The notes: generated by a model not told the origin, from the letters alone. DNA of 64,000 nt from Candidatus Omnitrophota bacterium (GCA_003141835.1 PLNR01000010.1:3768-67767), one strand, 5' to 3'. Counted from the stretch's first letter, positions 6,861 to 59,241 are shown. Numbers and translations: made by a program.

Positions 6861-6925
6861 CCCCATAGCCGTTGTTAATAATTTTGATTTATGGTAGAAT
6901 CAAAAAAATTGGAAGATATAAGGTT

Positions 6926-9900: not shown

Positions 9901-9976
9901 TGCCAACTACGACTTCGAATACAAACAGGACTTTACCTCCCATACGGGTTGGGCTGATATCAGGTACAAGTTTTAG
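6926..9976 (+). CDS. Autotransporter: Gly/Thr/Asn-rich beta-helical passenger plus C-terminal autotransporter beta-barrel domain
   Basis: Signal peptide. Repetitive GTxxxxG beta-helix-like passenger. C-terminal roughly 280 aa with alternating aromatic strands ending RYKF. ATG 6926 with upstream GGAAGA is preferred over the TTG at 6872 used by the ORF track. Confidence 0.7.
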   Translation: MRARYLKFFKFSGLFVFVLLSLFSPPAATAETFDQACANALANIKAVSGSNAFVPDPNAIPARGNKAIITIQGTPASENPAFGLTYNSNFGGGTNYLVVRTLTNNGFYNNSSGNLRNGVGDYTTFNDGTGIHSASWMTTGNEMTKVIDASHTLPGDIVTTLERSLGINTDPAKGGNSHTAIVEYGVIPDLNHLIRPTNLLLIKSYSPDHADYTYNTPLFNPVQPPLADMGQAVFDHAKAYLQYWQTTQLDAGVFPWTELGYTYYWGQSGITLNDIQGSSEFIILGGTNVKIIGMYSPQSYMYTKNKNGAFSSDADAEYGNGFGSFNVTDTCDTIWAGNAFQKNAGNDPNNPNQIILAALPGVPTVSGGQGLLVWSTNYTVTNNGTISGATVNKLKDATAGAGKNNPGMDGTANIAVLFLGNTSYGDPGGKNILINSGEISSDPANASTAVEADAGTTEITNNTGGIISGYKYGIHFLSGTNRITNMGTISATGPAAGNPAAIRIDGGTTAIDSTGGTINGNVVVASGASLDVGASTLNVNGKYVQDNSSTLKVTVADPSSSGKIISNTDTTVSAASNVNVTVANSTFIPNNTTFTVVDAAGAADVNVPGMIASSDPRITFSGVSSNGGLILTASRATSGFSSLGTNSNTSAVGGVLDNISSPSGDMTTVLNTLEGLSNSQTESALATVVPIVDSGVTNVSNTTINQFIGTSTDRLGGLFAQAQQEEETGVSTGSKEKSGFEAWGRGFGEAAHQDPRGLSNGYTATIWGTALGGDFPIFNDKVRLGASGGYAFSDVNSKDNSGATDINSYQATFYGGYINPEKPYYINGAFSFAYNTYKGKRNIDIGTIRRIASSSYKGQQYSVLFDGGYTFKTKNINITPIASLQYLRLNLQIYTETGADALNLSVKGQGYNLLESGLGARFDRPFEGSYGTLIPEVHVKWFYDIITDKQAATSTFSGGGGSFATNGFSPARNALNAGGRLALITKGNWSFDANYDFEYKQDFTSHTGWADIRYKF

Positions 9977-10805
9977 CCTTTTTATTTCGGCCTTATCCGT
10001 TTCTTTGTGCCTGTGCGGATGCGCCACGACATCCTATGATCCGGGATACGAGAACGGATTCATAAAAACTCTTATCCCCGGGCGTAATTTCACCCTTCTT
10101 TCGTATACCAGGATCAAAGAAACAGGTAAGCCGCTTGTAATTTACATCGAAGGGGATGGATTGGCATGGAAATCCCGTTCCCGTGTCTCTTCCGACCCCA
10201 CCCCAACGGACCCTCTCGTTATGCGTCTCACCGCCTTGGATCCTTCGCCGAATGTCGCGTACCTTGCCCGTCCGGGACAATATCCTTCCCTGGGAGCGTC
10301 CCGATGCGACCCGAAATACTGGACAGGAAGTCGGTTCTCGCGGGAAGTTATAGAAAATATGGATACGGCTGTCAGCCGGTTGCGCGAAAAAGCCAAGGCG
10401 CCGTCGGTGTCGCTAGTCGGTTATTCCGGGGGAGCCGCTGTTGCGGTCCTTATTTCAGCGAGGCGCGATGACATTACGGGCCTGCGCACTATCGCCGGGA
10501 ATCTTGATTGCGATGCCGTCAGCAGATGGAATGAAGTAAGTCCGCTCAAAGATTCGTTGAATCCTATTGATGTTGCGGCCAAGATCAGCGCTGTCCCCCA
10601 GCGCCACTTTATTGCGTCCGGCGACAAAGTCGTCCCTTCCTACGTCGCAGAATCATTTGCCGGGAATTGCGGCGATGAAAAATATAAGAGCATCACGACA
10701 GTCAAGGGCGCTACGCATTATTCAGGATGGGAAGATAAATGGGCCGGCCTGCTCAAGGTCCCGTTATATGATAAAAACGAGGCGCTGCTTCCCGAAACTC
10801 CTTGA
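9900..10805 (+). CDS. Lipoprotein alpha/beta-hydrolase (esterase/lipase-like, GYSGG nucleophile elbow)
   Basis: Lipobox L-C-G-C after a hydrophobic stretch. GxSxG motif VGYSGGAAV. The predicted start overlaps the autotransporter 3' end by 77 nt, so the start is uncertain. Confidence 0.6.
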   Translation: MPTTTSNTNRTLPPIRVGLISGTSFSLFISALSVSLCLCGCATTSYDPGYENGFIKTLIPGRNFTLLSYTRIKETGKPLVIYIEGDGLAWKSRSRVSSDPTPTDPLVMRLTALDPSPNVAYLARPGQYPSLGASRCDPKYWTGSRFSREVIENMDTAVSRLREKAKAPSVSLVGYSGGAAVAVLISARRDDITGLRTIAGNLDCDAVSRWNEVSPLKDSLNPIDVAAKISAVPQRHFIASGDKVVPSYVAESFAGNCGDEKYKSITTVKGATHYSGWEDKWAGLLKVPLYDKNEALLPETP

Positions 10806-10830
10806 TATAGTAAGACATTACCTCTATAAT
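10802..10830 (+). promoter_or_regulatory. Promoter cassette variant: TTGATA-17-TATAAT, 9 nt before ATG 10840
   Basis: TTGATA 10802-10807, spacer TAGTAAGACATTACCTC, TATAAT 10825-10830. Related to the cassette at 345-388. Confidence 0.55.
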
Positions 10831-10839
10831 AATAAAATT

Positions 10840-11586
10840 ATGAAAACCCTAAAAGCGATAATGCTACCGGTTTTAGCCTGCTTATTTGTTTTTATAATAT
10901 GCCTAAGTTCCTATGCGGACGATGGGCAAGACCTGATAAATGCCGCCCAGACAGGTAATATCCTGGCTGTCAAAGCGCTTCTCGCCAAAGGCGCAGATGT
11001 AAATGCGAAAACTAAGTATGGCATGACCGCCTTGATGGCGGCATCGGAAGAAGGACACCTCGATATAGTACAGGCGCTCATCGCCAAAGGCGCTGACGTT
11101 AATTCGAAAACTAACGATGGCGGGACCGCCTTGATGCGGGCCGGGCGTCTCGATGTAGTACAGGAACTTCTTGTCAAGGGCGCAGACGTGAACGCGAAAG
11201 CCAAGTATGGCATAACCGCTTTAATGCAGGCATCTTCAGCCGGCCACCTCGATATAGTACAGGCGCTCATCGCCAAAGGCGCTGACGTTAATGCGAAGAC
11301 TAACGATGGCATGGCCGCTTTAATGCAGGCATCTTCAGCCGGCCACCTCGATATAGTACAGGCGCTCATCGCCAAAGGCGCTGACGTGGGCGCGAAGGCT
11401 AACGATGGCTGGACCGCCTTGATGGCGGCATCGGAAGAAGGACATCTTGATATAGCACAAACTCTCCTTGCCAAAGGCGCAGACGTTAATGCGAAGACTA
11501 ACGATGGCGGGACCGCATTAAGCGCAGCTAAAAGAAACGGGCATAATGAAATAGCCTGGGTGCTTATCAACAGCGGGGCAAGGTAG
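10840..11586 (+). CDS. Secreted or membrane-anchored ankyrin-repeat protein (about 7 ANK repeats)
   Basis: N-terminal hydrophobic signal/anchor. Repeated 33-aa units GxTALMxASxxGHLDIVQALIAKGADVNAKT. The start is taken at the ATG after the promoter rather than the upstream in-frame ATG at 10567. Confidence 0.85.
   Translation: MKTLKAIMLPVLACLFVFIICLSSYADDGQDLINAAQTGNILAVKALLAKGADVNAKTKYGMTALMAASEEGHLDIVQALIAKGADVNSKTNDGGTALMRAGRLDVVQELLVKGADVNAKAKYGITALMQASSAGHLDIVQALIAKGADVNAKTNDGMAALMQASSAGHLDIVQALIAKGADVGAKANDGWTALMAASEEGHLDIAQTLLAKGADVNAKTNDGGTALSAAKRNGHNEIAWVLINSGAR
10924..11577 (+). repeat. Tandem 99-bp DNA repeats encoding the ANK units; some copies are identical over at least 60 bp
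   Basis: The string ttaatgcaggcatcttcagccggccacctcgatatagtacaggcgctcatcgccaaaggcgctgacgt occurs twice, at about 11221 and 11320. Confidence 0.8.
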
Positions 11587-28098: not shown

Positions 28099-28968
28099 AT
28101 GCCGGACCGCGGATTACGGGAAAAAATACTAGACGCCCAGAAAAACGAGCTCACCGAGCATATCGTATACAAAAAGCTTGCCGCCGCCGTAAAAAATAAA
28201 GCGCAGGCCGAAGTCCTGGAGAAGATATCCCGCGAGGAGTTGGACCATTACGAGCTCTTCAAGGCTTTCACGAAGAAGGATGTCGACCCGAAGAATTTCA
28301 AGGTATTTATTTATGTGTTCATATCGAAAGTATTAGGATTGAACTTCGGGTTGAAGCTGATGGAAAACGGGGAATGCCTCGCCCAGGACGTCTATACCGG
28401 GTTAAAGACGGCCCTGCCCGGGATAGAAAAAACGATCGAAGATGAGCAGAAGCATGAGTCCGCGCTGCTTGCGCTGGTCAACGAAGACCGCCTGAAATAC
28501 GCAAGTTCTGTAGTCCTCGGCCTGAATGACGCTTTGATAGAATTCACGGCTAGCCTGGCCGGTTATACTTTGGCATTGCAGCACGCGAGGCTCATAGGTA
28601 TAGTGGGCCTGATAACGGGAATAGCCGCTTCCACCTCTATGGCCGCTTCGGAATACCTGTCGGTGAAGCATGAAGAAACAGGGAAAGAGCCCATTAAGGC
28701 CAGTATCTACACCGGGGTTGCATATGTCATAGTGGTAACGCTGATGGTTTTGCCGTATTTCCTGTTCGATAACGTCTTCATCAACCTGGGGCTGGTGGTC
28801 GCTGTTTCGCTTTTGGTAATATTAGTCTTCACTTTTTACATCTCGACGGCCAAGGGGCTTGATTTCAGGAAGAGGTTCCTGGAGATGGCCGGTTTAAGCC
28901 TTGCCACGGCCGCTCTGACGTTCCTTATCGGGCTTGCGATAAGAAAGATATTCGGTTTCGATGTTTAA
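28099..28968 (+). CDS. mbfA: Membrane-bound ferritin-like protein: erythrin (ferritin-like) domain fused to a VIT1/CCC1 iron-transporter domain (MbfA-like)
   Basis: N-terminal ExxH diiron-type helices (ELTEHIVY..., REELDHYELF). C-terminal VIT1-type TM bundle with acidic residues. Confidence 0.6.
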   Translation: MPDRGLREKILDAQKNELTEHIVYKKLAAAVKNKAQAEVLEKISREELDHYELFKAFTKKDVDPKNFKVFIYVFISKVLGLNFGLKLMENGECLAQDVYTGLKTALPGIEKTIEDEQKHESALLALVNEDRLKYASSVVLGLNDALIEFTASLAGYTLALQHARLIGIVGLITGIAASTSMAASEYLSVKHEETGKEPIKASIYTGVAYVIVVTLMVLPYFLFDNVFINLGLVVAVSLLVILVFTFYISTAKGLDFRKRFLEMAGLSLATAALTFLIGLAIRKIFGFDV

Positions 28969-30080: not shown

Positions 30081-30704
30081 ATGAAAAAATTACTGCACAT
30101 AATAGCGACGCCGAGAGGGGAAGAATCCAGGACATTGGCGGTGACCGGCGCCTTTCTCGAGGCCTTCAGGAAGGGCCATCCCGACTGGGCAGTCGAGGAG
30201 TTCGATCTTTCAAAGGAAGACCTGCCCTCGCTTACGGTAAAGAGGGTAGACGGCAAATATGTCCTCTTGTCAGGCAAAGACCTCTCCGGAGACCTGAAAG
30301 CTGCATGGGAAGAGATCGTAAAGCATATAGAAAGGTTCCTGTCGGCAGACGGTTACCTGATAAGCACGCCGATGTGGAATTTCAGCGTCCCGTACACGCT
30401 CAAGCATTATATAGACGTCATAATCCAGCCGAAGTACATGTTCCGTTATACGGCGACCGGGGCAGAGGGGCTCGTGAAGGGCAAAAAAATGGTCATCGTA
30501 GCCAGCCGCGGCGGTGATTACAGCTCTAAGGAAACCCGCGCTGCCGACTTCCAGGAGCCTTACCTGCGCGCGATATTCGGCCTTGTGGGCATCACCGACA
30601 TTTCTTTTGTCGTTGCCCAGCCCATGGACATGGGGCCCGACCTGCAGAAGCAAAAGATAGGCGAAGCCCAGCAGGCCGCCAGGCTTGCGGCCGGCAAATT
30701 CTGA
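30081..30704 (+). CDS. azoR: FMN-dependent NADH-azoreductase / quinone reductase (AzoR family)
   Basis: Collinear with E. coli AzoR by eye: PMWNFSVPYTLKHYIDVI and GKKMVIVASRGG. Confidence 0.8.
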   Translation: MKKLLHIIATPRGEESRTLAVTGAFLEAFRKGHPDWAVEEFDLSKEDLPSLTVKRVDGKYVLLSGKDLSGDLKAAWEEIVKHIERFLSADGYLISTPMWNFSVPYTLKHYIDVIIQPKYMFRYTATGAEGLVKGKKMVIVASRGGDYSSKETRAADFQEPYLRAIFGLVGITDISFVVAQPMDMGPDLQKQKIGEAQQAARLAAGKF

Positions 30705-30718
30705 CAAGGGAGAAGATA

Positions 30719-32446
30719 TTGCGGGATGAACTGACTATAAAGATCGCCGGGGACGCGGGCCAGGGAATGCAGACGGTAAGTACGGTCCTGGCCAAGGCAT
30801 TCAAGAAAGCCGGCCTGCATATATTTGTTAACCAGGATTTCATGTCGAGGATACGCGGCGGCAACAACTTTTCCCAGTTAAGGGTCGCGGCAAAGCCAGT
30901 TTTTGCCCCGAGGGAGAGGACTGATATCATCGTATCCCTTGACAAGGAAAGCGCAAGCCTTCATAGCGCTTCCGTCGCAAACGAAGGCATAATGATCCTG
31001 GACAGGCAAAAGACCGGGATAACCGGTAACGAGCCGTCATATTTTGACGTCCCGTTTTACGACATGGCGAAGAAGGCCGGCGGCAGCGAGCTCTACGCCA
31101 ATTCCGCGGCAAGCGGCATCCTTGCCGGGATAACGCGCCTCGATTTCCGCCATGTTGAAGAAGCGTTGAAAGAGACGTTCGGCGACAAGTCTGCGGACGT
31201 GATAAAGATAAATATAGACGCGGCTCGCCTGGGATATGACTTCGCGAAGGATAATTTCAAGCCGGATATGTTCGCGATCAAAGAAAGCGGACCGAACGGC
31301 AATTTGTTGATGAACGGCAACGACGCGATCGCGCTTGGCGCCATAAGGGCCGGCTGCAAATTTTATTCCGCGTACCCGATGTCCCCTTCCACTAGCATAA
31401 TGGAGAATATAAGCCGTTACGCGAAGGATTTCGGCATCATCGTCGAACAGGCCGAGGACGAGATCGCGGCGATAAACATGATAATAGGGGCTTCGTTCGC
31501 CGGCGTACGTTCGATGTGCGCCACATCCGGCGGCGGGTTCGCCCTGATGGCCGAAGGGCTAAGCCTTGCCGGTATGCTGGAGACGCCTATTGTCGCGGTT
31601 GACGCGCAGAGGCCGGCTCCGGCGACCGGATTCCCGACCCGCACGGAGCAGGCCGACCTCGATTTTATCATCCATGCGGGCCACGGCGAATTCGCGAGGG
31701 CGGTATTTGCCCCGGGGACGGCAGAGCAGGCTTTTTACCTTACCGTAAAGGCGTTCAACCTCGCGGAAAAATTCCAGGTGCCGGTCATTATCCTGACCGA
31801 CCAGCATCTCGCCGATTCTTCGCGCGATATAGGGGCCTTCGACCTGGGTAATGCCAGGGTGGAGCGCCATATCATCTCGAAAGAGGACTCGAAGAAGGTC
31901 GCAGGATACAAACGCTACCAGATCACTAAGACGGGCATTTCGCCTATGGCAGTGCCTTCATGGATAGACGACGTGATCTACGCGGACAGCGACGAACATA
32001 CCGAAGAGGGGCACATCACCGAGGACGCGCATATAAGGGTCTCGATGGTGGAAAAGCGGTTATATAAGAAGATGGAACTTCTCTCGCAGGAGATCGAAGA
32101 GCCGGCCAGGTTCAATATTGAAAGCGCCGATACTATACTGGTCGGGTTCGGCTCGACTTACGGGGTCATGAAAGAGGCCTGCGACGCGATCCCGCGCGGG
32201 AAAACCGGATTTGTGCACCTTTCGCAGGTGTGGCCGTTCCCTTCGAGGCAATTGGCCGCGTTATTGAAAGGAAATAAGAAGATCCTCACGGTAGAGAACA
32301 ACGCCGGCGCGCAACTCGCCGGCCTCATCCGCCGTTTTACCGGCATCGAGGCCGACGGTTCGATATTGAAATATGACGGGCGGCCCTTTGATGTCGATTT
32401 CCTCGTAGAGAGGGTCTCGGAGGTCACAAGCCATGGCAGACGTTAA
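30719..32446 (+). CDS. 2-oxoacid:ferredoxin oxidoreductase, fused gamma-alpha subunit
   Basis: N-terminal gamma-type domain (IAGDAGQGMQ) followed by an alpha domain. TTG start with an AAGGGAGAAG RBS. Confidence 0.8.
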   Translation: MRDELTIKIAGDAGQGMQTVSTVLAKAFKKAGLHIFVNQDFMSRIRGGNNFSQLRVAAKPVFAPRERTDIIVSLDKESASLHSASVANEGIMILDRQKTGITGNEPSYFDVPFYDMAKKAGGSELYANSAASGILAGITRLDFRHVEEALKETFGDKSADVIKINIDAARLGYDFAKDNFKPDMFAIKESGPNGNLLMNGNDAIALGAIRAGCKFYSAYPMSPSTSIMENISRYAKDFGIIVEQAEDEIAAINMIIGASFAGVRSMCATSGGGFALMAEGLSLAGMLETPIVAVDAQRPAPATGFPTRTEQADLDFIIHAGHGEFARAVFAPGTAEQAFYLTVKAFNLAEKFQVPVIILTDQHLADSSRDIGAFDLGNARVERHIISKEDSKKVAGYKRYQITKTGISPMAVPSWIDDVIYADSDEHTEEGHITEDAHIRVSMVEKRLYKKMELLSQEIEEPARFNIESADTILVGFGSTYGVMKEACDAIPRGKTGFVHLSQVWPFPSRQLAALLKGNKKILTVENNAGAQLAGLIRRFTGIEADGSILKYDGRPFDVDFLVERVSEVTSHGRR

Positions 32447-33293
32447 AGATTTCATGAGCAATGATCCGATAGCATGGTGCCCGGGATGCGGGGATTACGG
32501 CATCCTGAACGCATTGAAAGCGGCGCTAGTAAAACTGGGGCGGAAACCCAAGGATATAGTCATTGCCTCGGGGATAGGTCAGGCCGCTAAATTGCCGCAT
32601 TATATAAAATGCAATTGCATAAACGGGCTCCACGGAAGGTCCCTCTCATACGCGGCCGCGGTCAAGATCGTCAATCGTGAATTGACCGTCATCGTCACCA
32701 CAGGCGACGGCGATTGCTACGGCGAAGGCGGTAACCATTTCATACACAATATCAGGCGCAATACGGATATTACCGTGATAGTCCACAATAACCAGATCTA
32801 CGGCCTCACCAAGGGACAGGCCTCGCCCACGACCGATGAGGGTTATGTCACTAAGGTGCAGCCCCAGGGAGTGATCTTGGAGCCGATCCGCGCGCTGGAG
32901 ATGGCGATAGCCCTCGGCGCGGGTTTTGTGGGCCGCGGTTATTCCGCGAATATGGAACATCTTTCATGGTTGATCGTCGAAGCGATCAATCACAAGGGGT
33001 TCTCACTCGTAGAGGTATTGCAGCCGTGCGTCTCGTTCAACAAAAAAAATACCCACGAATGGTATTCGAAGAGGGTATATAAGGTCAACGACGACCCGGC
33101 ATACGATCCCGGGAATTTTGCCGCGGCGTTCCAGAAGGCCTCGGAATGGGGCGACAGGATCCCGACAGGCATAATATACAGGACCGAGAAACCTTCATAC
33201 GGGGAGAAGAGCGGCCTCGATAAAATGCCGCCGCTGGTCGACAGCAAGATAGACGATATCGACATAACAAGCATTTTAAAAGAATACGCATAA
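32433..33293 (+). CDS. 2-oxoacid:ferredoxin oxidoreductase beta subunit (TPP-binding)
   Basis: WCPGCGDYGI motif and TPP-binding GDG...N region. Overlaps the alpha subunit 3' end. Confidence 0.8.
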   Translation: MADVKDFMSNDPIAWCPGCGDYGILNALKAALVKLGRKPKDIVIASGIGQAAKLPHYIKCNCINGLHGRSLSYAAAVKIVNRELTVIVTTGDGDCYGEGGNHFIHNIRRNTDITVIVHNNQIYGLTKGQASPTTDEGYVTKVQPQGVILEPIRALEMAIALGAGFVGRGYSANMEHLSWLIVEAINHKGFSLVEVLQPCVSFNKKNTHEWYSKRVYKVNDDPAYDPGNFAAAFQKASEWGDRIPTGIIYRTEKPSYGEKSGLDKMPPLVDSKIDDIDITSILKEYA

Positions 33294-33327
33294 ATTAACC
33301 GTACTGCCCGAAAAATAGGAGGGACCG

Positions 33328-33723
33328 ATGGCACAGTTAAAGGAACTTTTTCAGGACGCGGACTGGAAGGCTGAGAAGCACGTGCCGGTAATAGAAGCGC
33401 CGGTTAAGGCCAAAAAACAGGAACCTATCCCGGTCACAGTGACCGTGGGGAAAGAGATACCCCATCCGAACACTACCGAGCACCATATCCGCTGGATAGA
33501 GGTATATTTCCAGCCTAAGGGCGAGAAATTCCCTTACCAGGTAGGCCGGTTCGAGTTCACCGCCCACGGCGAATCTGTCCAGGGGATGAATACGAGCACT
33601 GTATACACACAGCCCTCGGTCAAGCTGAGTTTCAGGACGGAAAAGCCCGGGACCATCCTCGCTTCCTCTTATTGCAACATACACGGCCTGTGGGAAAACT
33701 CCCAGGAATTGGACGTAGAATGA
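33328..33723 (+). CDS. Superoxide reductase (1Fe-SOR / neelaredoxin type)
   Basis: AEKHVPVIE and CNIHGLW iron-ligand motifs. 131 aa. RBS AGGAGGG. Confidence 0.8.
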   Translation: MAQLKELFQDADWKAEKHVPVIEAPVKAKKQEPIPVTVTVGKEIPHPNTTEHHIRWIEVYFQPKGEKFPYQVGRFEFTAHGESVQGMNTSTVYTQPSVKLSFRTEKPGTILASSYCNIHGLWENSQELDVE

Positions 33724-34550
33724 CGATGAGGACCGTGACTTTTAAAGGAACCCCGGTAACCCTGGTCGGAAGGGCCTTGAAGATCGACGCCGCGGCGCCG
33801 AATTTCCGGCTGACTTCGGGCAGCCTGGAAGAGGTCAGGCTGGGGAATTTCAAGGGAAAGACGAAGGTGATAACTTCTTTCCCTTCGATAGACACTCCCG
33901 TTTGCGACCTGCAGGTGAAGGAATTCAACAAACGCGCCGCCGGGCTTTCCCGGGACGCGGTCATCATAGGGGTAAGCAAGGACCTGCCCTTCGCGCAGAA
34001 GAGGTTCTGCGAATCCTTCGACATAAACGATATAACCCTATTGTCGGACTATAAGACCTCGTCTTTCGGGATAAATTACGGGCTTTTGATAAAAGAGATG
34101 AACTTGTTGGCAAGATCCATAACAATATTGGATAAAAATGATATCATAAGATACATCCAAATAGTGCCCGAATTGGCCACTCCCCCGGATTATCGAGCGG
34201 CCCTGACTGAGCTAGATTTGATTTTAAAAAGTCAAGCCGCGAAGACCCCGTCCGGTGACGGGGTGATGCTAGCGCCAAAAGAGAAAGCGGATAAGCTGGC
34301 AGCCATGCATAGCGGCTGGCAGCTGGTCGAAGATAAAAAAATAGAGAAGGAGTTTAAATTCAAGGATTTTATCGAGGCAAAATATTTTCTCGACCTTATA
34401 AGCGTCATCGCCGAAGAGGAAGGCCATCATCCAAGCATGACATTGGCCTATAATAAACTGAAAGTCACGCTAACGACCCACGCGGCCGGCGGGCTGACCG
34501 AAAACGATTTTATCATGGCCGGCCATATAGATAGCCTTGGGATGGGTTAA
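33720..34550 (+). CDS. Fusion protein: thiol peroxidase (Tpx, atypical 2-Cys peroxiredoxin) plus C-terminal pterin-4a-carbinolamine dehydratase (PCD/DCoH) domain
   Basis: N-terminal 165 aa are collinear with E. coli Tpx ([20 protein letters not shown]). The C-terminal 95 aa carry the PCD signature [23 protein letters not shown]. The ATG at 33720 overlaps the SOR stop (ATGA). Confidence 0.75.
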
Positions 34551-48786: not shown

Positions 48787-49269
48787 ATGCGCGAAGAGAA
48801 ACTATCCGTCGATATCGAGAATATCGTCAAGAAATGGGAGGGCAAGAAGGGCAGCCTGATCATGATCCTGCACGATATCCAGAACCTCTACGGATACGTC
48901 CCGCGCGCGACGTCGCTCCAGCTTTCGAACTACCTCGAGGTCCCGCTCGCCAGGATATACGAAGTCATCACCTTTTACCATTTCTTCAAACTTGAGCCGC
49001 CCGGCAAGCACCTGATACAGGTCTGCATGGGCACGGCCTGCTATCTCAAGGGCGCCTCGGACCTGCTCCATGAATTGCGCGATATACTCGGCGTCAGGGA
49101 AGGGACAACCACCAAAGACGGGCTTTTCCGCCTCGAGGTCGTAAGGTGCCTCGGCTGCTGCGGGCTCGCCCCGGTCGTAAAGGTAGACAGCAAGGTCTAC
49201 AGCAAGGTCACGAAAGACCGCGTTGCGGACATACTCTCCGAATATGAACAGGAAGCGGCCGTCAAATGA
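48787..49269 (+). CDS. hndA: [FeFe]-hydrogenase NuoE-like [2Fe-2S] subunit (HndA/HydC type)
   Basis: Thioredoxin-like 2Fe-2S pattern CMGTACYLKG...CLGCCGLAP. Confidence 0.8.
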   Translation: MREEKLSVDIENIVKKWEGKKGSLIMILHDIQNLYGYVPRATSLQLSNYLEVPLARIYEVITFYHFFKLEPPGKHLIQVCMGTACYLKGASDLLHELRDILGVREGTTTKDGLFRLEVVRCLGCCGLAPVVKVDSKVYSKVTKDRVADILSEYEQEAAVK

Positions 49270-49628
49270 GCAAGATAACAAAAGAAGAACTTGATAATAT
49301 AGCGAAACAGCCGAAAAAAGAAGATAAGGACTGGATAAAGGTCGGGATGTCGAGCTGCGGCATCGCGGCCGGCGCCGAAGAGGTCTTCAAGACGCTCACC
49401 GAAGAGGTGAAGAAGAGGAACATCCAGGTCGCGATAAAGAAATGCGGCTGCGTCGGGATGTGCTCGGTCGAGCCGCTCGTCGAGGTGAACGTCGAGGGGA
49501 TGCCGCAGGTTACCTACGGCAAGGTGGACAAGGACGTCGCGATACAGATATTGGACGACCACATACACAACCACAGGCTGGTCAACGACCATATTTACGA
49601 TATACAGGTAAAGAAGGCTGATGGATAA
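49266..49628 (+). CDS. hndB: Small thioredoxin-like [2Fe-2S] ferredoxin subunit (HndB type)
   Basis: MSSCGIAAGA...KCGCVGMC Cys pattern. 120 aa. Sits between the NuoE-like and NuoF-like genes. Confidence 0.65.
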   Translation: MSKITKEELDNIAKQPKKEDKDWIKVGMSSCGIAAGAEEVFKTLTEEVKKRNIQVAIKKCGCVGMCSVEPLVEVNVEGMPQVTYGKVDKDVAIQILDDHIHNHRLVNDHIYDIQVKKADG

Positions 49629-51360
49629 GAAGATAGTATTCATAAAGGATACCGGGATATCGCTGCCGGAGAGGACAAAGGACGTCTACGCGGCCTTCCT
49701 TAACGGCCTCCGCGACCGCGGCATGCAGGATTCGGTGATGGCCGTTCGCGTCGCCGATATCGGCGCCTATAGCCAGGGCGTGGTGATAAAGGTCCTCCCG
49801 GACACGACTTATTACAACGTCAAAGACGCGGATATCAACCGCATCATAGATTCCATAAAAGAGGGCAAGGCCGTCCAGGACCTCGCAACGCGCAAGGAAG
49901 CCAAACAATTAAGGATAGTCCTGAGGAACTGCGGCGTTGTCGACCCGGATAATATCGACGATTATCTCGCAAGGGACGGTTACCAGTCGATAAAGAAAGT
50001 CCTCTTTGAATTAAAGACGCAGGAAAAAGTTATAGACGAGATAAAGAAGAGCGGCCTTCGCGGCAGGGGCGGCGCAGGATACCCGACGTGGATGAAGTGG
50101 AATTTCGCGAAACAGATGGCCGCAGACCAGAAATACGTCATCTGCAACGGCGATGAGGGCGACCCGGGCGCTTACATGGACAGGAGCGTGCTCGAGGGCG
50201 ACCCGTACTCGGTAGTCGAGGGGATGATGATCGCCGGTTTTTCTATCGGGGCCACAAAAGGATATTTTTATATCAGGGCGGAATACCCGCTCGCTGTCGA
50301 CAGGATCCAGAATGCCATTGACCGCTGTTACGAGCGCGGGCTCCTGGGCAACAATATATTAGGAAGCAGTTTTAATTTCGACCTCGAGATAAGGCTCGGC
50401 GCCGGCGCTTTCGTCTGCGGCGAGGAGACGGCGCTCATAGCGTCGATCGAGGGGAGGAGAGGAACGCCTCATCCGCGTCCCCCGTATCCTTCGGTAAAGG
50501 GCCTCTGGGGCAGCCCGACGGTAATAAATAACGTCGAGACGCTCGCCAACGTCCCTTATATCATACTTAAAGGCGGAGATGTATTCGCCCGCGTCGGCAC
50601 GGCGACATCGAAAGGCACGAAAGTCTTCGCGCTGACAGGCAAGATAAAAAATTCCGGGCTCGTCGAGGTCCCCATGGGCACGACTATCCGCGAGATAGTA
50701 TTCGATATAGGCGGCGGCATATTCAATAACAAGGCGATCAAGGCGATACAGACAGGCGGCCCGTCCGGCGGCGTTATCCCTAAGGATTTTCTCGATACGC
50801 CGGTAGATTACGAGAACCTCCAGAAGCTCGGCTCCATAATGGGCTCAGGCGGCATGATAGTCATGGACGAGGACGACTGCATGGTCGATATCGCGAGGTT
50901 CTACCAGAGGTTCTGCTTTGAAGAGTCGTGCGGCAAGTGCTCGCCCTGCAGGATCGGCACGGCGCAGATGCTCAACACCTTGAGCAAGATCGCGGAGGGC
51001 CTGGGAGAATTGAGCGACCTTGATAATTTACGGAGGATATCGCAGGCGATGCAGAAAGCCGCGCTCTGCGGCCTCGGCCAGACCGCGCCGAACCCGGTCG
51101 TCTCAACGCTAAGATATTACCAGGACGAATACGAAGTCCATATCATCAACAAGAAATGCCCGTCGAAGAAATGCCGCAACCTTTTGAGCTATAAGATCAT
51201 CCCCGAGAAATGCAAGAAGTGCTCGGTCTGCATGATGAACTGCGAGGCGAAGGCGATAACCGGCAACAAAGACGACGGCTATACCATAGACATGAACAAA
51301 TGCGTCCGCTGCGGAAAATGTTTCGAGGTCTGCAAGTTCAAGGCGGTATCAAAGGAATAA
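49621..51360 (+). CDS. hndC: NuoF-like NAD(P)H-binding flavoprotein subunit with N-terminal 2Fe-2S and C-terminal 2x[4Fe-4S] domains (HndC type)
   Basis: GRGGAGYPT FMN/NADH site. ESCGKCSPCR 4Fe-4S motif. C-terminal CxxCxxCxxxC repeated twice. Confidence 0.85.
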   Translation: MDKKIVFIKDTGISLPERTKDVYAAFLNGLRDRGMQDSVMAVRVADIGAYSQGVVIKVLPDTTYYNVKDADINRIIDSIKEGKAVQDLATRKEAKQLRIVLRNCGVVDPDNIDDYLARDGYQSIKKVLFELKTQEKVIDEIKKSGLRGRGGAGYPTWMKWNFAKQMAADQKYVICNGDEGDPGAYMDRSVLEGDPYSVVEGMMIAGFSIGATKGYFYIRAEYPLAVDRIQNAIDRCYERGLLGNNILGSSFNFDLEIRLGAGAFVCGEETALIASIEGRRGTPHPRPPYPSVKGLWGSPTVINNVETLANVPYIILKGGDVFARVGTATSKGTKVFALTGKIKNSGLVEVPMGTTIREIVFDIGGGIFNNKAIKAIQTGGPSGGVIPKDFLDTPVDYENLQKLGSIMGSGGMIVMDEDDCMVDIARFYQRFCFEESCGKCSPCRIGTAQMLNTLSKIAEGLGELSDLDNLRRISQAMQKAALCGLGQTAPNPVVSTLRYYQDEYEVHIINKKCPSKKCRNLLSYKIIPEKCKKCSVCMMNCEAKAITGNKDDGYTIDMNKCVRCGKCFEVCKFKAVSKE

Positions 51361-51361
51361 A

Positions 51362-53113
51362 ATGGCAAAATCCATACAAGCGAAGATAAACGACATATTC
51401 ATCAAAGTCCCCGAGGGGACGACAATACTCGAGGCGGCCAAGAGCGTCCAGATAAAGATACCGACGCTGTGCAAGCATCCCGACCTGCCGCCGTCAGCTT
51501 CGTGCGGCATCTGCGTGGTAAAGGCGAAGGGCTCGAACAAGATGCTCAGGGCCTGCTGCACGCCTCTCGACGAGGGCATGGAGATAACGACCCACGATCC
51601 CGAAATAGTCGCGATAAGGAGGAGCGTCCTCGAACTGATACTTTCGAACCATCCCAACGACTGCCTTATCTGCGGACGCAACAATAACTGCGAACTCCAG
51701 AAGATAGTCGCGGATTTCGGCATCTCGGAAGAATATTTCCCGAAGATAAAGCGCGACCTTCCGATGGATGACTCGACCAAGGCCGTCGTCCTCGAGCCGG
51801 AAAAATGCATTTTGTGCGGCAGGTGCATCTATGTCTGCCAGGATATGCAGGATGTATGGGCGCTCTCGTTCCTCCAGCGCGGCATAAAGACAAGGTTCTC
51901 CCCGGCCGGCGATATAACGTTGGCCGAGTCGCCGTGCATAAAGTGCGGCCAGTGCTCGGCGCATTGCCCGACCGGCGCTATCGTCGAATACTTCGACGTG
52001 CCGAAGGTCTGGAAGGCGCTCGAGAATCCCGATAAATATTGCGTAGTGCAGATCGCCCCGGCTGTCAGGGCCTCCATAGGTGAGGCGTTCGGGGTCGCGG
52101 GAAAAAATTTCACGGGGAAATTATACGCGTTATTGAGGAGGCTCGGTTTCAAGGCGGTATTCGATACGAGCTTCGCGGCCGATGTCACTATCATGGAAGA
52201 GGCGAGCGAGTTCGAGCAGAGGTTCGTGAAGGGCACAAAGCCGCTTCCGTTGATCACGACCTGCTGCCCGTCGTGGGTGGATTTCATGGAGAAGTTCCAC
52301 ACCGACATGATCGAACATTTCTCGTCCTGCAAGTCTCCGCACGAGATCCTCGGCGTGCTCTCTAAGACATACTACGCCTCGAAAAACAACATTGACCCTT
52401 CGAAGATAGTAATGGTCTCGGTAATGCCCTGCACCGCAAAGAAATACGAGATAACCAGGACCGACGAGATGTCTGCCTCGGGATATCAGGACGTCGACAT
52501 CGTCATGACGACAAGGGAGCTCGCGCTGATGATAAAACAGGCGGGCATAGATTTCATGAACCTTCCCGATGAAGAATCGGACACGATACTCGGCGAATAC
52601 GCCGGCGCCGGAGTCATCTTCGGTTCGACCGGCGGCGTCATGGAAGCCGCGTTAAGGACAGCGAATTATTTCATAACCGGCGAAGAGTTGAAGAAAGTCG
52701 ACCTTGATGTAGTCAGGGGCCTTAAGAGGGTAAAAGAGGGCGAGATCGAAGTCGGCGGCAAGAAAGTCCGCGTTGCGGTCGCGCACGGCATGGCGAACGT
52801 CGAATATGTTTTAAATAAAGTAAGGGAAGCGAAGAAGGCGGGCAAGGAATTGCCCTACCATTTTATCGAAGTAATGGCATGCCCGGGCGGCTGCGTCGGA
52901 GGCGGCGGGCAGCCGTACATGGTAACCGACGAGGTCAGGACTCTCAGGGCCGCGGCGCTATATGAAGACGACAAGACCAAAGCGGTGCGGTGCTCGCACC
53001 AGAACCCGTATATAAAGAGGCTTTACAAGGAATTCCTGGAGAAGCCGTTGAGCGAAAAATCCGAGAAACTTCTCCACACGACCTACAAAGGCCGTCCCAT
53101 CTACAAGAGATAG
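51362..53113 (+). CDS. hndD: [FeFe]-hydrogenase catalytic subunit (HndD/HydA type): N-terminal 2Fe-2S and 4Fe-4S domains, then the H-cluster domain
   Basis: H-cluster motifs L1 TTCCPSW, L2 MPCTAKKYE, L3 EVMACPGGCVGGGGQP. Confidence 0.9.
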   Translation: MAKSIQAKINDIFIKVPEGTTILEAAKSVQIKIPTLCKHPDLPPSASCGICVVKAKGSNKMLRACCTPLDEGMEITTHDPEIVAIRRSVLELILSNHPNDCLICGRNNNCELQKIVADFGISEEYFPKIKRDLPMDDSTKAVVLEPEKCILCGRCIYVCQDMQDVWALSFLQRGIKTRFSPAGDITLAESPCIKCGQCSAHCPTGAIVEYFDVPKVWKALENPDKYCVVQIAPAVRASIGEAFGVAGKNFTGKLYALLRRLGFKAVFDTSFAADVTIMEEASEFEQRFVKGTKPLPLITTCCPSWVDFMEKFHTDMIEHFSSCKSPHEILGVLSKTYYASKNNIDPSKIVMVSVMPCTAKKYEITRTDEMSASGYQDVDIVMTTRELALMIKQAGIDFMNLPDEESDTILGEYAGAGVIFGSTGGVMEAALRTANYFITGEELKKVDLDVVRGLKRVKEGEIEVGGKKVRVAVAHGMANVEYVLNKVREAKKAGKELPYHFIEVMACPGGCVGGGGQPYMVTDEVRTLRAAALYEDDKTKAVRCSHQNPYIKRLYKEFLEKPLSEKSEKLLHTTYKGRPIYKR

Positions 53114-53208
53114 CCTGGGGGACGTCCCATTGGGGGACACCCCATTTTATACCTGCGGTGAAGAGCGACAACGCTCTGAGGCCAAGGGGCTGAAAGTAGC
53201 ATATATTA

Positions 53209-53236
53209 GCCCGGCTTCGCCATGCCGGGCTTTTTT
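53209..53236 (+). terminator. Rho-independent terminator GCCCGGC-loop-GCCGGGC followed by T6
   Basis: Perfect 7-bp GC stem at 53209-53215 / 53224-53230, then TTTTTT. It directly abuts the RBS of the next gene. Confidence 0.7.
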
Positions 53237-53250
53237 AATGCGGAGGAAAA

Positions 53251-53502
53251 ATGAACAAGAGGCTGGGATTTATGGGGATAATAGTGACTGACAGGAACAA
53301 GCAGGCCGGCGAGGTCAATAAGATCCTCTCCGAGTTCGGGAATATTATCCAAGGAAGGATGGGTATCCCGTACAAAGAGAGGAATTGCTCGATAATAACG
53401 CTCATCGTAGACGCATCGACCGACGATGTCGGCGCGCTGACCGGAAGGCTTGGGCTGATACCCGGCGTATCGGTAAAATCGGCGCTAAGCAAAGGTAAAT
53501 AA
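53251..53502 (+). CDS. TM1266-like small protein (putative iron-only hydrogenase system regulator family)
   Basis: 83 aa, MNKRLGFMGIIVTDR...IITLIVDAS pattern. Position immediately upstream of the hyd maturase genes. Confidence 0.55.
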   Translation: MNKRLGFMGIIVTDRNKQAGEVNKILSEFGNIIQGRMGIPYKERNCSIITLIVDASTDDVGALTGRLGLIPGVSVKSALSKGK

Positions 53503-54883
<1,381 letters not shown>

Positions 54884-54900
<17 letters not shown>

Positions 54901-59212: not shown

Positions 59213-59240
59213 TTGACAAATGATACCATTGTGGTATCAT
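59213..59240 (+). promoter_or_regulatory. Promoter TTGACA-16-TATCAT containing the perfect inverted repeat GATACCA-TTG-TGGTATC (putative Rrf2 operator)
   Basis: TTGACA 59213-59218. Palindrome 59222-59238. -10 at 59235-59240, immediately before the ATG. Confidence 0.5.
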
Positions 59241-59241
59241 T

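What the first reader, a model, noticed from the sequence alone, without database searches (positions are those of the whole stretch)
30081..34550. Redox-stress island ending in an unusual Tpx-PCD fusion, ATGA-coupled to superoxide reductase
AzoR, a two-subunit 2-oxoacid:ferredoxin oxidoreductase and a 1Fe superoxide reductase sit in a row. The last gene is a single ORF that fuses a complete thiol peroxidase to a complete pterin-4a-carbinolamine dehydratase/DCoH domain through a roughly 25-aa linker. There is no stop codon between the two halves. PCD is not a known partner of peroxiredoxins. The fusion may indicate a pterin- or quinonoid-linked reductant recycling route for peroxide detoxification in this anaerobe, or a DCoH-type dimerisation role.
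Basis: seen in the sequence. Interest (0 to 1): 0.6.

Follow-up and report, generated by a model that had tools for sequence, protein, structure and literature searches.

The report
Conserved thiol peroxidase–pterin dehydratase fusion protein
One gene in an anaerobe's oxygen-defence cluster really does join a complete peroxide-destroying enzyme to a complete pterin-recycling enzyme; the same joined protein is found in dozens of related uncultured bacteria, nobody appears to have studied it, and it hints that these cells repair oxidised pterin cofactors after oxygen exposure.

Summary
Window 33720-34550 (+) is one uninterrupted 276-aa ORF. It holds a canonical thiol peroxidase (Tpx, residues 3-165), a disordered linker of about 20 residues, and a canonical pterin-4a-carbinolamine dehydratase (PCD, residues 187-273). 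Its ATG overlaps the TGA of a 1Fe superoxide reductase gene.

It is not an assembly artefact. All 120 best database clusters, about 20 more distant cluster representatives and about 40 species-level genomes (mostly Candidatus Omnitrophota MAGs) carry the same architecture. In the 120-cluster core clade every catalytic residue of both halves is invariant, and the PCD half is more conserved than the Tpx half.

In other genomes the gene sits co-directionally inside anaerobe oxygen/ROS-defence clusters. These hold SOR, rubrerythrin, flavodiiron protein, rubredoxin, DJ-1/PfpI, ferritin/VIT1 and Grx with a TrxR-like gene.

Public records call it only "thiol peroxidase", and no paper on it was found.

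The best reading is a bifunctional stress enzyme whose PCD half processes 4a-hydroxy-pterins formed when reduced pterins oxidise. Any coupling between the two halves is inferred, not shown.

The window's copy alone lacks a CxxC element that 119 of the 120 clusters have. It is a new variant of known kinds and of moderate interest.

The parts
33720..34550 (+). Tpx-PCD fusion gene (276 aa plus stop). Its start ATG overlaps the SOR stop (ATGA).
   Evidence: The identical protein P0001 is called on at least 4 contigs.
33726..34214 (+). Thiol peroxidase (atypical 2-Cys peroxiredoxin) domain, residues 3-165. Key residues: T59-P-V-C62 with the peroxidatic Cys at nt 33903-33905, the resolving Cys97 at nt 34008-34010, and Arg132.
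   Evidence: NCBIfam PRK00522, 178 bits against a cut-off of 123. PDB Tpx chains match at E 1e-39 to 1e-26. Foldseek TMt 0.97, rmsd 1.0 A to 3p7x. T59, C62, C97 and R132 are invariant in 120/120 clusters.
34215..34277 (+). Interdomain linker, residues 166-186. It is variable and predicted disordered. Between L184 and A185 (nt 34271|34272) this copy lacks the ~18-residue CxxC segment present in 119/120 relatives.
   Evidence: AF2 pLDDT <50 for residues 173-185. Linker mean pairwise identity 0.50 with no invariant column. Linker alignment.
34278..34547 (+). Pterin-4a-carbinolamine dehydratase (PCD/DCoH) domain, residues 187-276. The catalytic signature is E232-x3-H236-H237-P238-x5-Y244-x9-H254-x8-D263, with HHP at nt 34425-34433.
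   Evidence: Pfam PF01329, 97.1 bits. PDB PCD/DCoH chains match at E 7e-14 to 7e-11. H236, H237, P238, H254 and D263 are invariant in 120/120 clusters, and the domain's mean pairwise identity is 0.77.
33328..33723 (+). 1Fe superoxide reductase (neelaredoxin type, no desulforedoxin domain), probably translationally coupled to the fusion gene (inferred from the ATGA overlap).
   Evidence: Pfam Desulfoferrodox, 119 bits. TIGR00332, 116.8 bits against a cut-off of 61.9. SOR lies within 6 kb of the fusion in 16/46 loci.
30719..32446 (+). 2-oxoacid:ferredoxin oxidoreductase alpha subunit (gamma-alpha fused; POR + POR_N + PFOR_II).
   Evidence: TIGR03710, 654 bits against a cut-off of 483. Pfam. An OFOR alpha/beta pair recurs beside the fusion in 6-7 of 46 loci.
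32433..33293 (+). 2-oxoacid:ferredoxin oxidoreductase beta subunit (TPP-binding).
   Evidence: TIGR02177, 355.5 bits against a cut-off of 261.9. Pfam.
30081..30704 (+). AzoR-like flavodoxin-fold NAD(P)H:quinone/azo reductase. Family membership is at Pfam level only.
   Evidence: Pfam Flavodoxin_2, 155.8 bits. NCBIfam azoreductase models all below cut-off, best 119 against 188. Found next to the fusion only in this window, 1/46 loci.
28099..28968 (+). VIT1-family iron transporter with an N-terminal rubrerythrin/ferritin-like domain. It is the gene type that sits directly upstream of the fusion in many relatives.
   Evidence: Pfam VIT1 and Rubrerythrin. VIT1 lies 18-37 bp upstream of the fusion in L002-L005, L008, L009, L012, L014, L018 and L023.

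Best explanation
The gene encodes a bifunctional oxidative-stress enzyme of a strict anaerobe, probably a member of Candidatus Omnitrophota.

The N-terminal half is an ordinary atypical 2-Cys thiol peroxidase. Cys62 attacks H2O2 or an organic hydroperoxide. The resulting sulfenic acid is resolved by Cys97. The disulfide is then re-reduced by a thioredoxin/glutaredoxin-type system, whose genes share the operon in many relatives.

The C-terminal half is a catalytically competent pterin-4a-carbinolamine dehydratase on a flexible tether. The organism is an anaerobe, and aromatic amino-acid hydroxylases, the usual source of the carbinolamine, need O2. The proposed substrate is therefore a 4a-hydroxy-tetrahydropterin formed non-enzymatically when reduced pterin cofactors (folate-type, or the molybdo/tungstopterin type) meet O2 or peroxide. 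Dehydrating it quickly to the quinonoid dihydropterin allows re-reduction and prevents rearrangement to dead-end isomers.

The fusion guarantees equimolar co-expression of the two activities within the ROS-defence regulon.

Shown: the architecture, its conservation, catalytic-residue conservation in both halves, the disordered linker, and the operon context.

Inferred: both activities, the identity of the pterin, and any functional coupling between the halves.
For: - The architecture is real and widespread. All 120 of the best 90%-identity clusters are full-length fusions. About 20 further 50%-identity representatives span both domains, at 37-59% identity. About 40 species-level genomes carry it.
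- Both catalytic sites are under purifying selection. T59, C62, C97, R132, H236, H237, P238, H254 and D263 are invariant in 120/120 clusters, while only 15-20% of columns are invariant overall. The PCD half (0.77 mean pairwise identity) is more conserved than the Tpx half (0.71) and the linker (0.50).
- Tpx membership passes NCBI's curated equivalog cut-off, and the modelled fold superposes on solved Tpx structures.
- The PCD core aligns end to end with solved, active PCDs 2ebb, 3jst and 1dch.
- The module is of the same long CxxC-bearing type as Pseudomonas aeruginosa PhhB, which sits next to phhA.
- AF2 gives two confident domains joined by a disordered linker.
- Context in 46 fusion loci: DJ-1/PfpI 18 (immediately downstream), rubredoxin 17, SOR 16, flavodiiron protein 16, rubrerythrin 15, Grx 13, TrxR-like 12, Rrf2 12, VIT1 11, ferritin 9, HCP 9. 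All are co-directional with the fusion.
- The window also carries a bifurcating-type [FeFe]-hydrogenase with HydE/F/G, plus Rrf2 and HCP, which fits a strict anaerobe.
- Canonical PCD chemistry, and the formation of 7-substituted isomers when PCD is absent, are described in PMC9737128 and PMC10215290.
Against: - No enzymology exists for any member.
- No pterin, folate, molybdopterin or dihydropteridine-reductase gene was seen in the 64-kb window or in the flanks of 46 fusion loci.
- Eighty stand-alone PCD loci from metagenomes show no oxidative-stress neighbours. The stress context may therefore come from the Tpx half alone.
- About 9 of 22 divergent fusion lineages have lost one or more catalytic histidines yet keep the domain. 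That points to some non-catalytic value of the domain.
- Several Omnitrophota relatives do without the PCD half altogether.
- The best NCBIfam PCD equivalog scores 79.0 against a cut-off of 80.
- Whether the genome has an aromatic amino-acid hydroxylase could not be checked.
Confidence: 0.5

Rival explanations
1. The PCD half is mainly a structural module, in the manner of DCoH or acRAF. Its dimer/tetramer-forming fold cross-links or stabilises Tpx dimers, or docks the peroxidase onto a partner. Dehydratase chemistry would be irrelevant.
For: - Divergent fusions keep a PCD-fold domain after losing catalytic residues. Examples: P0126 NHLP, P0127 GHYP, P0132 GSLP, P0136 DHYP, P0139 EIQP, P0140 CHYP, P0143 GYDP, P0146 QHYP. 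P0134, P0141 and L054 have fully degenerate tails.
- A PCD-like protein without PCD activity is known as an assembly factor: 4low acRAF appears among the PDB hits (its function is from memory).
- No pterin genes lie in the neighbourhood.
- The window copy has lost the CxxC element.
Against: - In the clade that contains the window protein, all five signature residues of the active site are invariant in 120/120 clusters. Only about 15% of PCD columns are invariant overall. A purely structural role would not require that.
- From general knowledge, Tpx is already a constitutive dimer, so an extra dimeriser has no obvious benefit.
- The linker is long and disordered rather than forming a fixed interface.
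Confidence: 0.25
2. Both halves are active but functionally unrelated. The fusion is a neutral or co-expression accident that became fixed in a lineage with compact genomes.
For: - Stand-alone PCDs are not found in stress clusters.
- Tpx-only relatives occupy similar stress-gene contexts (SOR, flavodiiron protein, rubredoxin).
- Gene spacing in the window is very tight, with many overlaps.
Against: - The fusion persists down to 37-45% identity and across many species.
- It has been built upon further, as rhodanese-Tpx-PCD and rubrerythrin-like-Tpx-PCD triple fusions.
- The PCD half is the most conserved part of the protein.
Confidence: 0.15
3. One reading: a tetrahydropterin serves as the reductant of the peroxidase, and the PCD half recycles the oxidised pterin.
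For: - Only the co-occurrence of the two domains supports this.
- A flavodoxin-fold NAD(P)H quinone reductase lies nearby in a few loci and could in principle reduce a quinonoid pterin. These are the AzoR-like gene in the window and a putative WrbA-like gene (judged from its sequence only, not scanned against Pfam) in L036, L041 and L042.
Against: - The resolving Cys97 of the ordinary dithiol cycle is invariant.
- Grx and TrxR-like genes sit in the same operon in 12-13 of 46 loci.
- Reduction of a sulfenic acid or disulfide by a tetrahydropterin would give the quinonoid form directly, not the 4a-carbinolamine that PCD acts on (chemical reasoning, not tested).
- The quinone reductases are not conserved neighbours: the AzoR-like gene occurs in 1/46 loci.
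Confidence: 0.05
4. An assembly or frameshift artefact has joined two separate genes.
For: None was found. One database entry (P0130) looks like a frameshifted copy, which shows that such errors occur in the opposite direction.
Against: - The same single-ORF architecture is seen in 120/120 best clusters, about 40 genomes including closed chromosomes (CP070684.1, CP070807.1, OY970323.1), and at least 4 independent assemblies of the identical protein.
Confidence: 0.01

Closest known systems
Thiol peroxidase Tpx (p20/scavengase), e.g. E. coli Tpx (1qxh, 3hvs) and S. aureus Tpx (3p7x)
   Same: - 35-43% identity over residues 3-165.
- Same fold: TMt up to 0.97.
- Same T-P-x-Cys peroxidatic motif, with the resolving Cys about 35 residues downstream and the conserved Arg.
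- Passes the NCBIfam equivalog cut-off.
   Different: All characterised and solved Tpx proteins are single-domain, about 165 aa. This one carries a C-terminal extension of about 110 residues that holds a second enzyme.
Pterin-4a-carbinolamine dehydratase: PhhB of Pseudomonas aeruginosa, mammalian PCD/DCoH (1dch), Geobacillus 2ebb, Brucella 3jst
   Same: - Full PCD core with the His-His-Pro...His...Asp signature.
- 35-45% identity to stand-alone bacterial PCDs.
- Relatives of the window protein also share PhhB's N-terminal CxxC.
   Different: - It is not a free ~100-aa protein.
- It is not next to a phenylalanine hydroxylase gene.
- It sits in an anaerobe's ROS-defence operon.
- The window copy has lost the CxxC element, so it resembles the short-form PCDs.
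Peroxiredoxin hybrid proteins fused to their reductant, e.g. the Haemophilus influenzae Prx-glutaredoxin hybrid (recalled from memory, not tested here)
   Same: A peroxiredoxin fused to a second functional domain in one polypeptide. Rhodanese-Tpx(-PCD) relatives found here may belong to that logic.
   Different: The fused partner here is a dehydratase with no thiol-disulfide chemistry. It cannot be the electron donor in the way glutaredoxin is.
Non-catalytic PCD-fold proteins: acRAF (4low) and plant RAF2 Rubisco assembly factors (function recalled from memory)
   Same: The divergent fusion lineages (P0132, P0139, P0143, P0134, P0141) resemble these in keeping the fold while losing the catalytic histidines.
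   Different: The window protein and its 120-cluster clade keep every catalytic residue.

Membership tests
Tpx subfamily of peroxiredoxins (atypical 2-Cys) | Score above the curated NCBIfam equivalog cut-off (NF001808 / PRK00522) | tested here: met
   178.2 bits against a cut-off of 123, residues 3-165 on profile positions 1-165 of 167.
Tpx subfamily of peroxiredoxins (atypical 2-Cys) | Peroxidatic Cys in a T-P-x-C motif, a resolving Cys about 35 residues downstream, and the conserved active-site Arg | tested here: met
   T59-P60-V61-C62, C97 and R132 are present and invariant in 120/120 relatives.
Tpx subfamily of peroxiredoxins (atypical 2-Cys) | Tpx fold | tested here: met
   The AF2 model (pLDDT 81) superposes on 3p7x_B with TMt 0.97 and rmsd 1.0 A over 164 columns.
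Tpx subfamily of peroxiredoxins (atypical 2-Cys) | Thioredoxin-dependent hydroperoxide reductase activity | not testable with these tools
   Needs an enzyme assay.
Pterin-4a-carbinolamine dehydratase (PF01329 / COG2154) | Pfam gathering threshold | tested here: met
   97.1 bits against a cut-off of 26, residues 186-273 on profile positions 5-91 of 91.
Pterin-4a-carbinolamine dehydratase (PF01329 / COG2154) | NCBIfam equivalog cut-offs for 4a-hydroxytetrahydrobiopterin dehydratase | tested here: inconclusive
   The best model, NF002017, scores 79.0 against a cut-off of 80. The other four models score 68-80 against cut-offs of 108-146. Those models were built on free-standing proteins.
Pterin-4a-carbinolamine dehydratase (PF01329 / COG2154) | Catalytic signature [EDKH]-x3-H-[HN]-[PCS]-x5,6-[YWF]-x9-[HW]-x8,15-D (motif recalled from Naponelli et al. 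2008; that paper is not held in the library) | tested here: met
   The regex matches EEEGHHP...Y...H...D in the window protein. H236, H237, P238, H254 and D263 are invariant in 120/120 clusters.
Pterin-4a-carbinolamine dehydratase (PF01329 / COG2154) | Dehydratase activity, or a partner pterin-dependent hydroxylase in the genome | not testable with these tools
   No hydroxylase lies in the 64-kb window. The whole genome could not be searched.
1Fe superoxide reductase (neelaredoxin) | Ferrous-iron SOR domain above the curated cut-off, with no desulforedoxin domain | tested here: met
   TIGR00332 scores 116.8 against a cut-off of 61.9. The 2Fe dfx model TIGR00320 scores only 40 against 147.
Two-subunit 2-oxoacid:ferredoxin oxidoreductase | Alpha (gamma-fused) and beta subunits above the curated subfamily cut-offs | tested here: met
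   TIGR03710 scores 654.3 against 482.75. TIGR02177 scores 355.5 against 261.9. Substrate specificity was not determined.
FMN-dependent NADH-azoreductase AzoR | NCBIfam azoreductase cut-offs | tested here: not met
   The best scores are 119.1 against a cut-off of 188 and 101 against 432. Only the broader Pfam Flavodoxin_2 family is met, at 155.8 bits.
Non-catalytic PCD-like proteins (DCoH-only / acRAF type) | Loss of the catalytic histidines | tested here: not met
   The histidines are retained and invariant in the window's clade. They are lost only in divergent lineages.

The most novel reading that the evidence does not exclude
The two halves act in sequence on one substrate, as a repair enzyme for oxidised pterin cofactors.

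1. A reduced pterin reacts with O2 and forms a 4a-hydroperoxy-tetrahydropterin, which is an organic hydroperoxide. The pterin could be tetrahydrofolate, 5-methyl-THF, or the pyranopterin of Mo/W enzymes.
2. The Tpx half reduces this hydroperoxide to the 4a-hydroxy form, so no H2O2 is released.
3. The tethered PCD half dehydrates the 4a-hydroxy form to the quinonoid dihydropterin, which is then re-reduced.

This would give PCD a defined job in organisms that lack aromatic amino-acid hydroxylases. It would also define a new class of peroxiredoxin substrate.
Probability: 0.15. Interest if true: 0.7.

Novelty: new variant of a known kind. Interest (0 to 1): 0.47.

Why it matters
Many bacteria have PCD genes but no pterin-dependent hydroxylase, and what PCD does there has been an open question since the 2008 COG2154 survey. 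That survey is cited in PMC9737128; I could not read the paper itself.

A conserved physical fusion of PCD to a hydroperoxide reductase, placed inside oxygen-defence operons of strict anaerobes, is a Rosetta-stone type clue. It suggests that PCD handles oxidatively damaged pterins, and it makes the idea directly testable with one recombinant protein.

The fusion also adds an unstudied component to the oxidative-stress equipment of Omnitrophota, a large uncultured phylum.

If the PCD half proves to be only structural, the finding shrinks to a domain-architecture curiosity.

Tried and rejected
- **Assembly artefact:** rejected.
- **Horizontally acquired 'island':** no GC or skew anomaly and no terminators above the shuffled expectation. 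The block is simply a dense co-directional gene row that runs on into sugar-epimerase, GT87 and GT2 genes.
- **CxxC before the PCD core as a fusion-specific redox relay for Tpx:**
  - The same CxxC occurs in free-standing PCDs, namely P. aeruginosa PhhB and Acetoanaerobium noterae.
  - The window copy lacks it.
  - I therefore treat it as an inherited PCD feature of unknown role.
  - A weak complementary pattern between loss of the resolving Cys and retention of CxxC in divergent members was not pursued, because the sample is too small.
- **Do stand-alone PCDs share the stress context?** Eighty metagenome loci show none of the panel genes and only one PhhA. Five have a putative PTR1/FolM-like short-chain reductase neighbour, judged by eye from its sequence motif and not scanned against any family library. 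PCD in general is therefore not a stress-operon gene.
- **Pterin/Moco genes near the fusion:** none in the window or in the clustered neighbours of 46 loci.
- **Calls that failed:**
  - Alignment A1 was too diverse for the search for related loci.
  - The Naponelli 2008 paper is not held.
  - Two encoding-contig look-ups failed because my start codons differed from the called genes.
  - The afdb50 fold library was unavailable.
- **Literature:** searches for a Tpx-PCD link, PCD with rubrerythrin, Omnitrophota with Tpx, and pterin hydroperoxide chemistry found nothing relevant. The search for Loosdrechtia was not informative.
- **Interdomain contacts:** not assessable, because no coordinates or PAE are returned and the 120 sequences are too similar for covariation analysis.

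Full report
**1. What is in the sequence**

The region 30081-34550 holds five co-directional genes on the + strand:
- 30081-30704: a flavodoxin-fold NAD(P)H reductase.
- 30719-32446 and 32433-33293: a two-subunit 2-oxoacid:ferredoxin oxidoreductase.
- 33328-33723: a 131-aa one-iron superoxide reductase.
- 33720-34550: a 276-aa protein.

The last ORF is uninterrupted. Its ATG at 33720-33722 overlaps the SOR stop codon TGA at 33721-33723. The mechanical ORF list extends it to a TTG at 33672. However, the closest homologues begin MATR.../MTPR..., which aligns with MTMR, and gene callers on independent contigs chose 33720. ATG 33726 remains a possible alternative start.

**2. Domain identity**

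Tpx half:
- Pfam places Redoxin/AhpC-TSA on residues 23-162.
- NCBIfam's thiol-peroxidase equivalog is passed: 178 bits against a cut-off of 123, residues 3-165.
- T59-P-V-C62 (peroxidatic Cys), C97 (resolving Cys) and R132 are all present.

PCD half:
- Pfam places Pterin_4a on residues 186-273, at 97 bits against a cut-off of 26.
- The NCBIfam PCD equivalogs fall just below or below their cut-offs. The best is 79.0 against 80.
- It carries the full signature E232-x3-H236-H237-P238-x5-Y244-x9-H254-x8-D263.

Solved structures:
- Thiol peroxidases match residues 3-166, at E 1e-39 to 1e-26. PCD/DCoH proteins match residues 179-273, at E 7e-14 to 7e-11. No solved chain covers both halves.
- An AlphaFold2 model built on 120 homologues has mean pLDDT 81. 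It shows two folded domains and a linker with pLDDT below 50 at residues 173-185.
- The Tpx half superposes on S. aureus Tpx with TMt 0.97 and rmsd 1.0 A.

Neighbours:
- The OFOR subunits and the SOR pass curated cut-offs.
- The 'AzoR' does not: 119 against 188. It is better called AzoR-like.

**3. The fusion is real and conserved**

- A search of 5.8 billion clustered proteins returned 2841 hits at E <= 1e-5. All 120 listed were 280-293-aa proteins covering 97-100% of the query, with the same Pfam architecture, at 63-100% identity. Where named, they are called only 'thiol peroxidase' or 'lipid hydroperoxide peroxidase', mostly from Candidatus Omnitrophota MAGs.
- The identical protein lies on at least four independently assembled contigs of about 100 kb.
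- An exhaustive HMMER scan of 1.84 billion 50%-identity representatives found about 20 more clusters that span both domains, at 37-59% identity.
Most are labelled Omnitrophota. Some are labelled Planctomycetes, Gammaproteobacteria GWE2_42_36, Spirochaetota, Chlamydiota or Candidatus Loosdrechtia. I did not verify those MAG labels.
- The window's own species is not in that genome collection; the best match there is 64-65% identical. Its assignment to Omnitrophota is an inference from its nearest named homologues.

**4. Selection on the two halves**

In the 120-cluster core clade:
- T59, C62, C97, R132, H236, H237, P238, H254, D263 and W200 are invariant in 120/120 clusters.
- Mean pairwise identity is 0.71 for the Tpx half, 0.50 for the linker and 0.77 for the PCD half.
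- Only 15-20% of columns are invariant, so finding all five PCD signature residues among them is unlikely without selection on the active site.

Deeper branches behave differently. Roughly 9 of 22 divergent representatives have lost one or more catalytic histidines but keep the domain. Some proteins have a fully degenerate PCD-like tail: P0134, P0141 and L054.

A rough neighbour-joining tree of Tpx domains, without support values, places Tpx-only Omnitrophota proteins and these degenerate forms inside the fused clade. That suggests secondary loss or decay of the PCD half.

**5. Genomic context**

I built a panel of 20 stress-related proteins from the first loci. I searched it against 46 loci with the full-length fusion; some of these are redundant copies of one genome region. 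The panel was also searched against 41 loci whose best match covered only the Tpx half, of which a few are truncated or frameshifted fusions.

Counts within 6 kb of the fusion, nearly always on the same strand (examples):

| Neighbour | Loci of 46 |
|---|---|
| DJ-1/PfpI (directly downstream, 5-27 bp, in nearly all) | 18 |
| Rubredoxin | 17 |
| SOR | 16 |
| Flavodiiron protein | 16 |
| FNR-like reductase | 16 |
| PNPOx-like flavoprotein | 16 |
| Rubrerythrin | 15 |
| Glutaredoxin | 13 |
| TrxR-like flavoprotein | 12 |
| Rrf2 regulator | 12 |
| VIT1 | 11 |
| Ferritin/Dps | 9 |
| Hybrid-cluster protein | 9 |
| Two-subunit OFOR | 6-7 |

About 25 of 38 species-level loci have at least one such neighbour.

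The direct SOR-fusion junction and the AzoR-like gene are peculiar to this window. The window also holds:
- a VIT1/ferritin-like gene at 28099-28968;
- a bifurcating-type [FeFe]-hydrogenase with HydE/F/G at about 48.8-58.5 kb;
- an Rrf2 regulator with a hybrid-cluster protein at 59.2-61.3 kb.

These fit a strict anaerobe. There is no compositional sign of a foreign island and no terminator excess.

No pterin, folate, molybdopterin or pteridine-reductase gene was seen in the window or around the fusions.

**6. The CxxC element**

In 119 of 120 core-clade clusters a C-x-P-C-E-G motif lies about 10 residues before the PCD core. The window protein is the single exception. Relative to its closest homologues (P0002-P0004) it lacks about 18 residues between L184 and A185, at nt 34271|34272.

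The motif is not specific to the fusion:
- Free-standing PCDs carry it, including P. aeruginosa PhhB next to phhA (MTALIQAHCEACRAD...) and the PCD of the anaerobe Acetoanaerobium noterae (...KKCEACSTG...).
- Solved short-form PCDs lack it.

Its loss therefore does not argue that the domain is inactive. Its role is unknown.

**7. How it most likely works**

Shown: architecture, conservation, intact catalytic residues in both halves, a flexible tether, and membership of an anaerobe ROS-defence cluster.

Inferred, at about 0.5 confidence: both halves are active.
- The Tpx half runs the ordinary Cys62/Cys97 cycle, fed by a Trx/Grx-type system.
- The PCD half dehydrates 4a-hydroxy-tetrahydropterins that arise non-enzymatically when reduced pterins oxidise during O2 exposure.
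- The usual enzymatic source, an O2-dependent hydroxylase, is unlikely in a hydrogenase-bearing anaerobe and is absent from the window.
- PCD's canonical reaction, and the formation of 7-substituted isomers when it is missing, are described in PMC9737128 and PMC10215290.

Rivals:
- A mainly structural PCD-fold module, about 0.25. It is supported by the degenerate lineages and opposed by active-site invariance in this clade.
- Two unrelated activities fused for co-expression, about 0.15.
It is opposed by the invariant resolving cysteine, by the Grx/TrxR-like neighbours, and by the fact that such a reaction would not yield a carbinolamine.
- An assembly artefact, about 0.01.

The most novel reading not excluded, at about 0.15, is a two-step repair. 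Tpx reduces a pterin 4a-hydroperoxide to the 4a-carbinolamine, and the tethered PCD dehydrates it.

One caution applies. Eighty free-standing PCD loci from metagenomes have no stress-gene neighbours, and only one has PhhA. The stress context therefore cannot be attributed to PCD in general.

**8. Comparison with what is known, and novelty**

Each half is a clear member of a well-known family: Tpx, and PCD/COG2154. The combination is in public databases but is named only after its first half. NCBIfam release 20 has no model for the full-length protein. Full-text searches found no paper that links the two.

It is therefore a new, uncharacterised variant of known kinds, not a new kind of system. 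It is widespread rather than unique to this contig.

Its value is as a Rosetta-stone clue to what PCD does in hydroxylase-free anaerobes, and as an unstudied part of Omnitrophota oxygen defence. I score interest at 0.47.

Noticed in passing
window 34215-34277 (junction nt 34271|34272): The window's copy is the only one of 120 core-clade clusters that lacks the conserved C-x-P-C-E-G (CxxC) element before the PCD core. This is an ~18-residue deletion relative to P0002-P0004. The same CxxC occurs in free-standing PCDs such as P. aeruginosa PhhB (L091 2489-2845) and Acetoanaerobium noterae (L090 4968-5309). Its function is unknown.
   Followed up: yes
P0122, P0135, L042 5656-6852, L043 5602-6846; P0123; P0142: Three-domain relatives exist: rhodanese-Tpx-PCD (398-414 aa, in MAGs labelled Gammaproteobacteria GWE2/GWF2) and rubrerythrin-like-Tpx-PCD (439 aa). 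There is also a rhodanese-Tpx protein without PCD.
   Followed up: partly
L050 6004-6561, L064 2091-2672, L073 5956-6546, L074 6001-6543: Tpx-only relatives from Omnitrophota and Planctomycete MAGs end in short glycine-rich tails carrying vicinal cysteines (…GGCVCGK, …GSCGCGGHH, …AGCGCGHSH, …GTCGCGGHH). This may be a redox or metal-binding tail.
   Followed up: no
L002 6851-7357; L008 6864-7373; 18 of 46 fusion loci: A DJ-1/PfpI-family gene follows the fusion gene, directly downstream (within 5-27 bp) in nearly all of these loci. It is the most frequent neighbour, yet it is absent from the window, where a sugar epimerase follows instead.
   Followed up: partly
window 30719-33293; L008 9609-12130; L009, L010, L013, L020, L025: A two-subunit (gamma-alpha fused plus beta, no delta) 2-oxoacid:ferredoxin oxidoreductase recurs inside or beside the ROS-defence cluster in several Omnitrophota. 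It may be a dedicated source of reduced ferredoxin for the detoxification enzymes.
   Followed up: partly
L036 6850-7677, L041 6882-7502, L042 4955-5605: In three loci that lack the usual stress-gene neighbours, a putative WrbA-like flavodoxin-fold NAD(P)H:quinone reductase lies next to the fusion. I judged its identity from the sequence only and did not scan it against Pfam. It echoes the AzoR-like gene of the window.
   Followed up: no
window ~48800-58480: A bifurcating-type [FeFe]-hydrogenase gene set: two 2Fe-2S thioredoxin-like subunits, a Complex1_51K subunit and the catalytic subunit at 51362-53113. It is followed by a fumarase-like gene and the maturases HydF, HydG/E-like radical-SAM proteins.
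   Followed up: partly
window ~59240-61315: A second redox-stress pair lies in the window: an Rrf2 regulator followed by a hybrid-cluster protein (Prismane, 555 aa). The same pair heads the fusion-containing operons in other Omnitrophota.
   Followed up: no
window 6872-9976 and 10567-11586: A 1034-aa autotransporter (beta-domain at the C-terminus) and a 339-aa protein made almost entirely of ankyrin repeats. Both are unusual in free-living bacteria, and both fit the host-associated lifestyle proposed for some Omnitrophota (that lifestyle claim is from memory).
   Followed up: no
P0149 (554 aa): A protein made of four tandem Pterin_4a domains (371 bits in total). Its origin and role are unknown.
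   Followed up: no
L028 5929-6849 (SOER01000001.1): A full-length fusion, followed by DJ-1, lies on a 294-kb contig of the anammox MAG 'Candidatus Loosdrechtia aerotolerans'. Either the family extends into Brocadiales or the contig is mis-binned.
   Followed up: no
L092-L171: Among 80 free-standing CxxC-type PCD loci from metagenomes, only one has a phenylalanine hydroxylase gene nearby. Five have a putative PTR1/FolM-like short-chain reductase next door, judged by eye from a TGxxRRIG-type motif and not scanned against any family library. Most PCD genes are therefore not linked to phhA.
   Followed up: partly
P0130 (265 aa): One database entry is a fusion whose sequence turns to low-complexity junk right after the conserved 'RGWQ'. 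It is probably a frameshifted assembly of a normal fusion gene. This shows that sequencing errors in this family break the fusion rather than create it.
   Followed up: no
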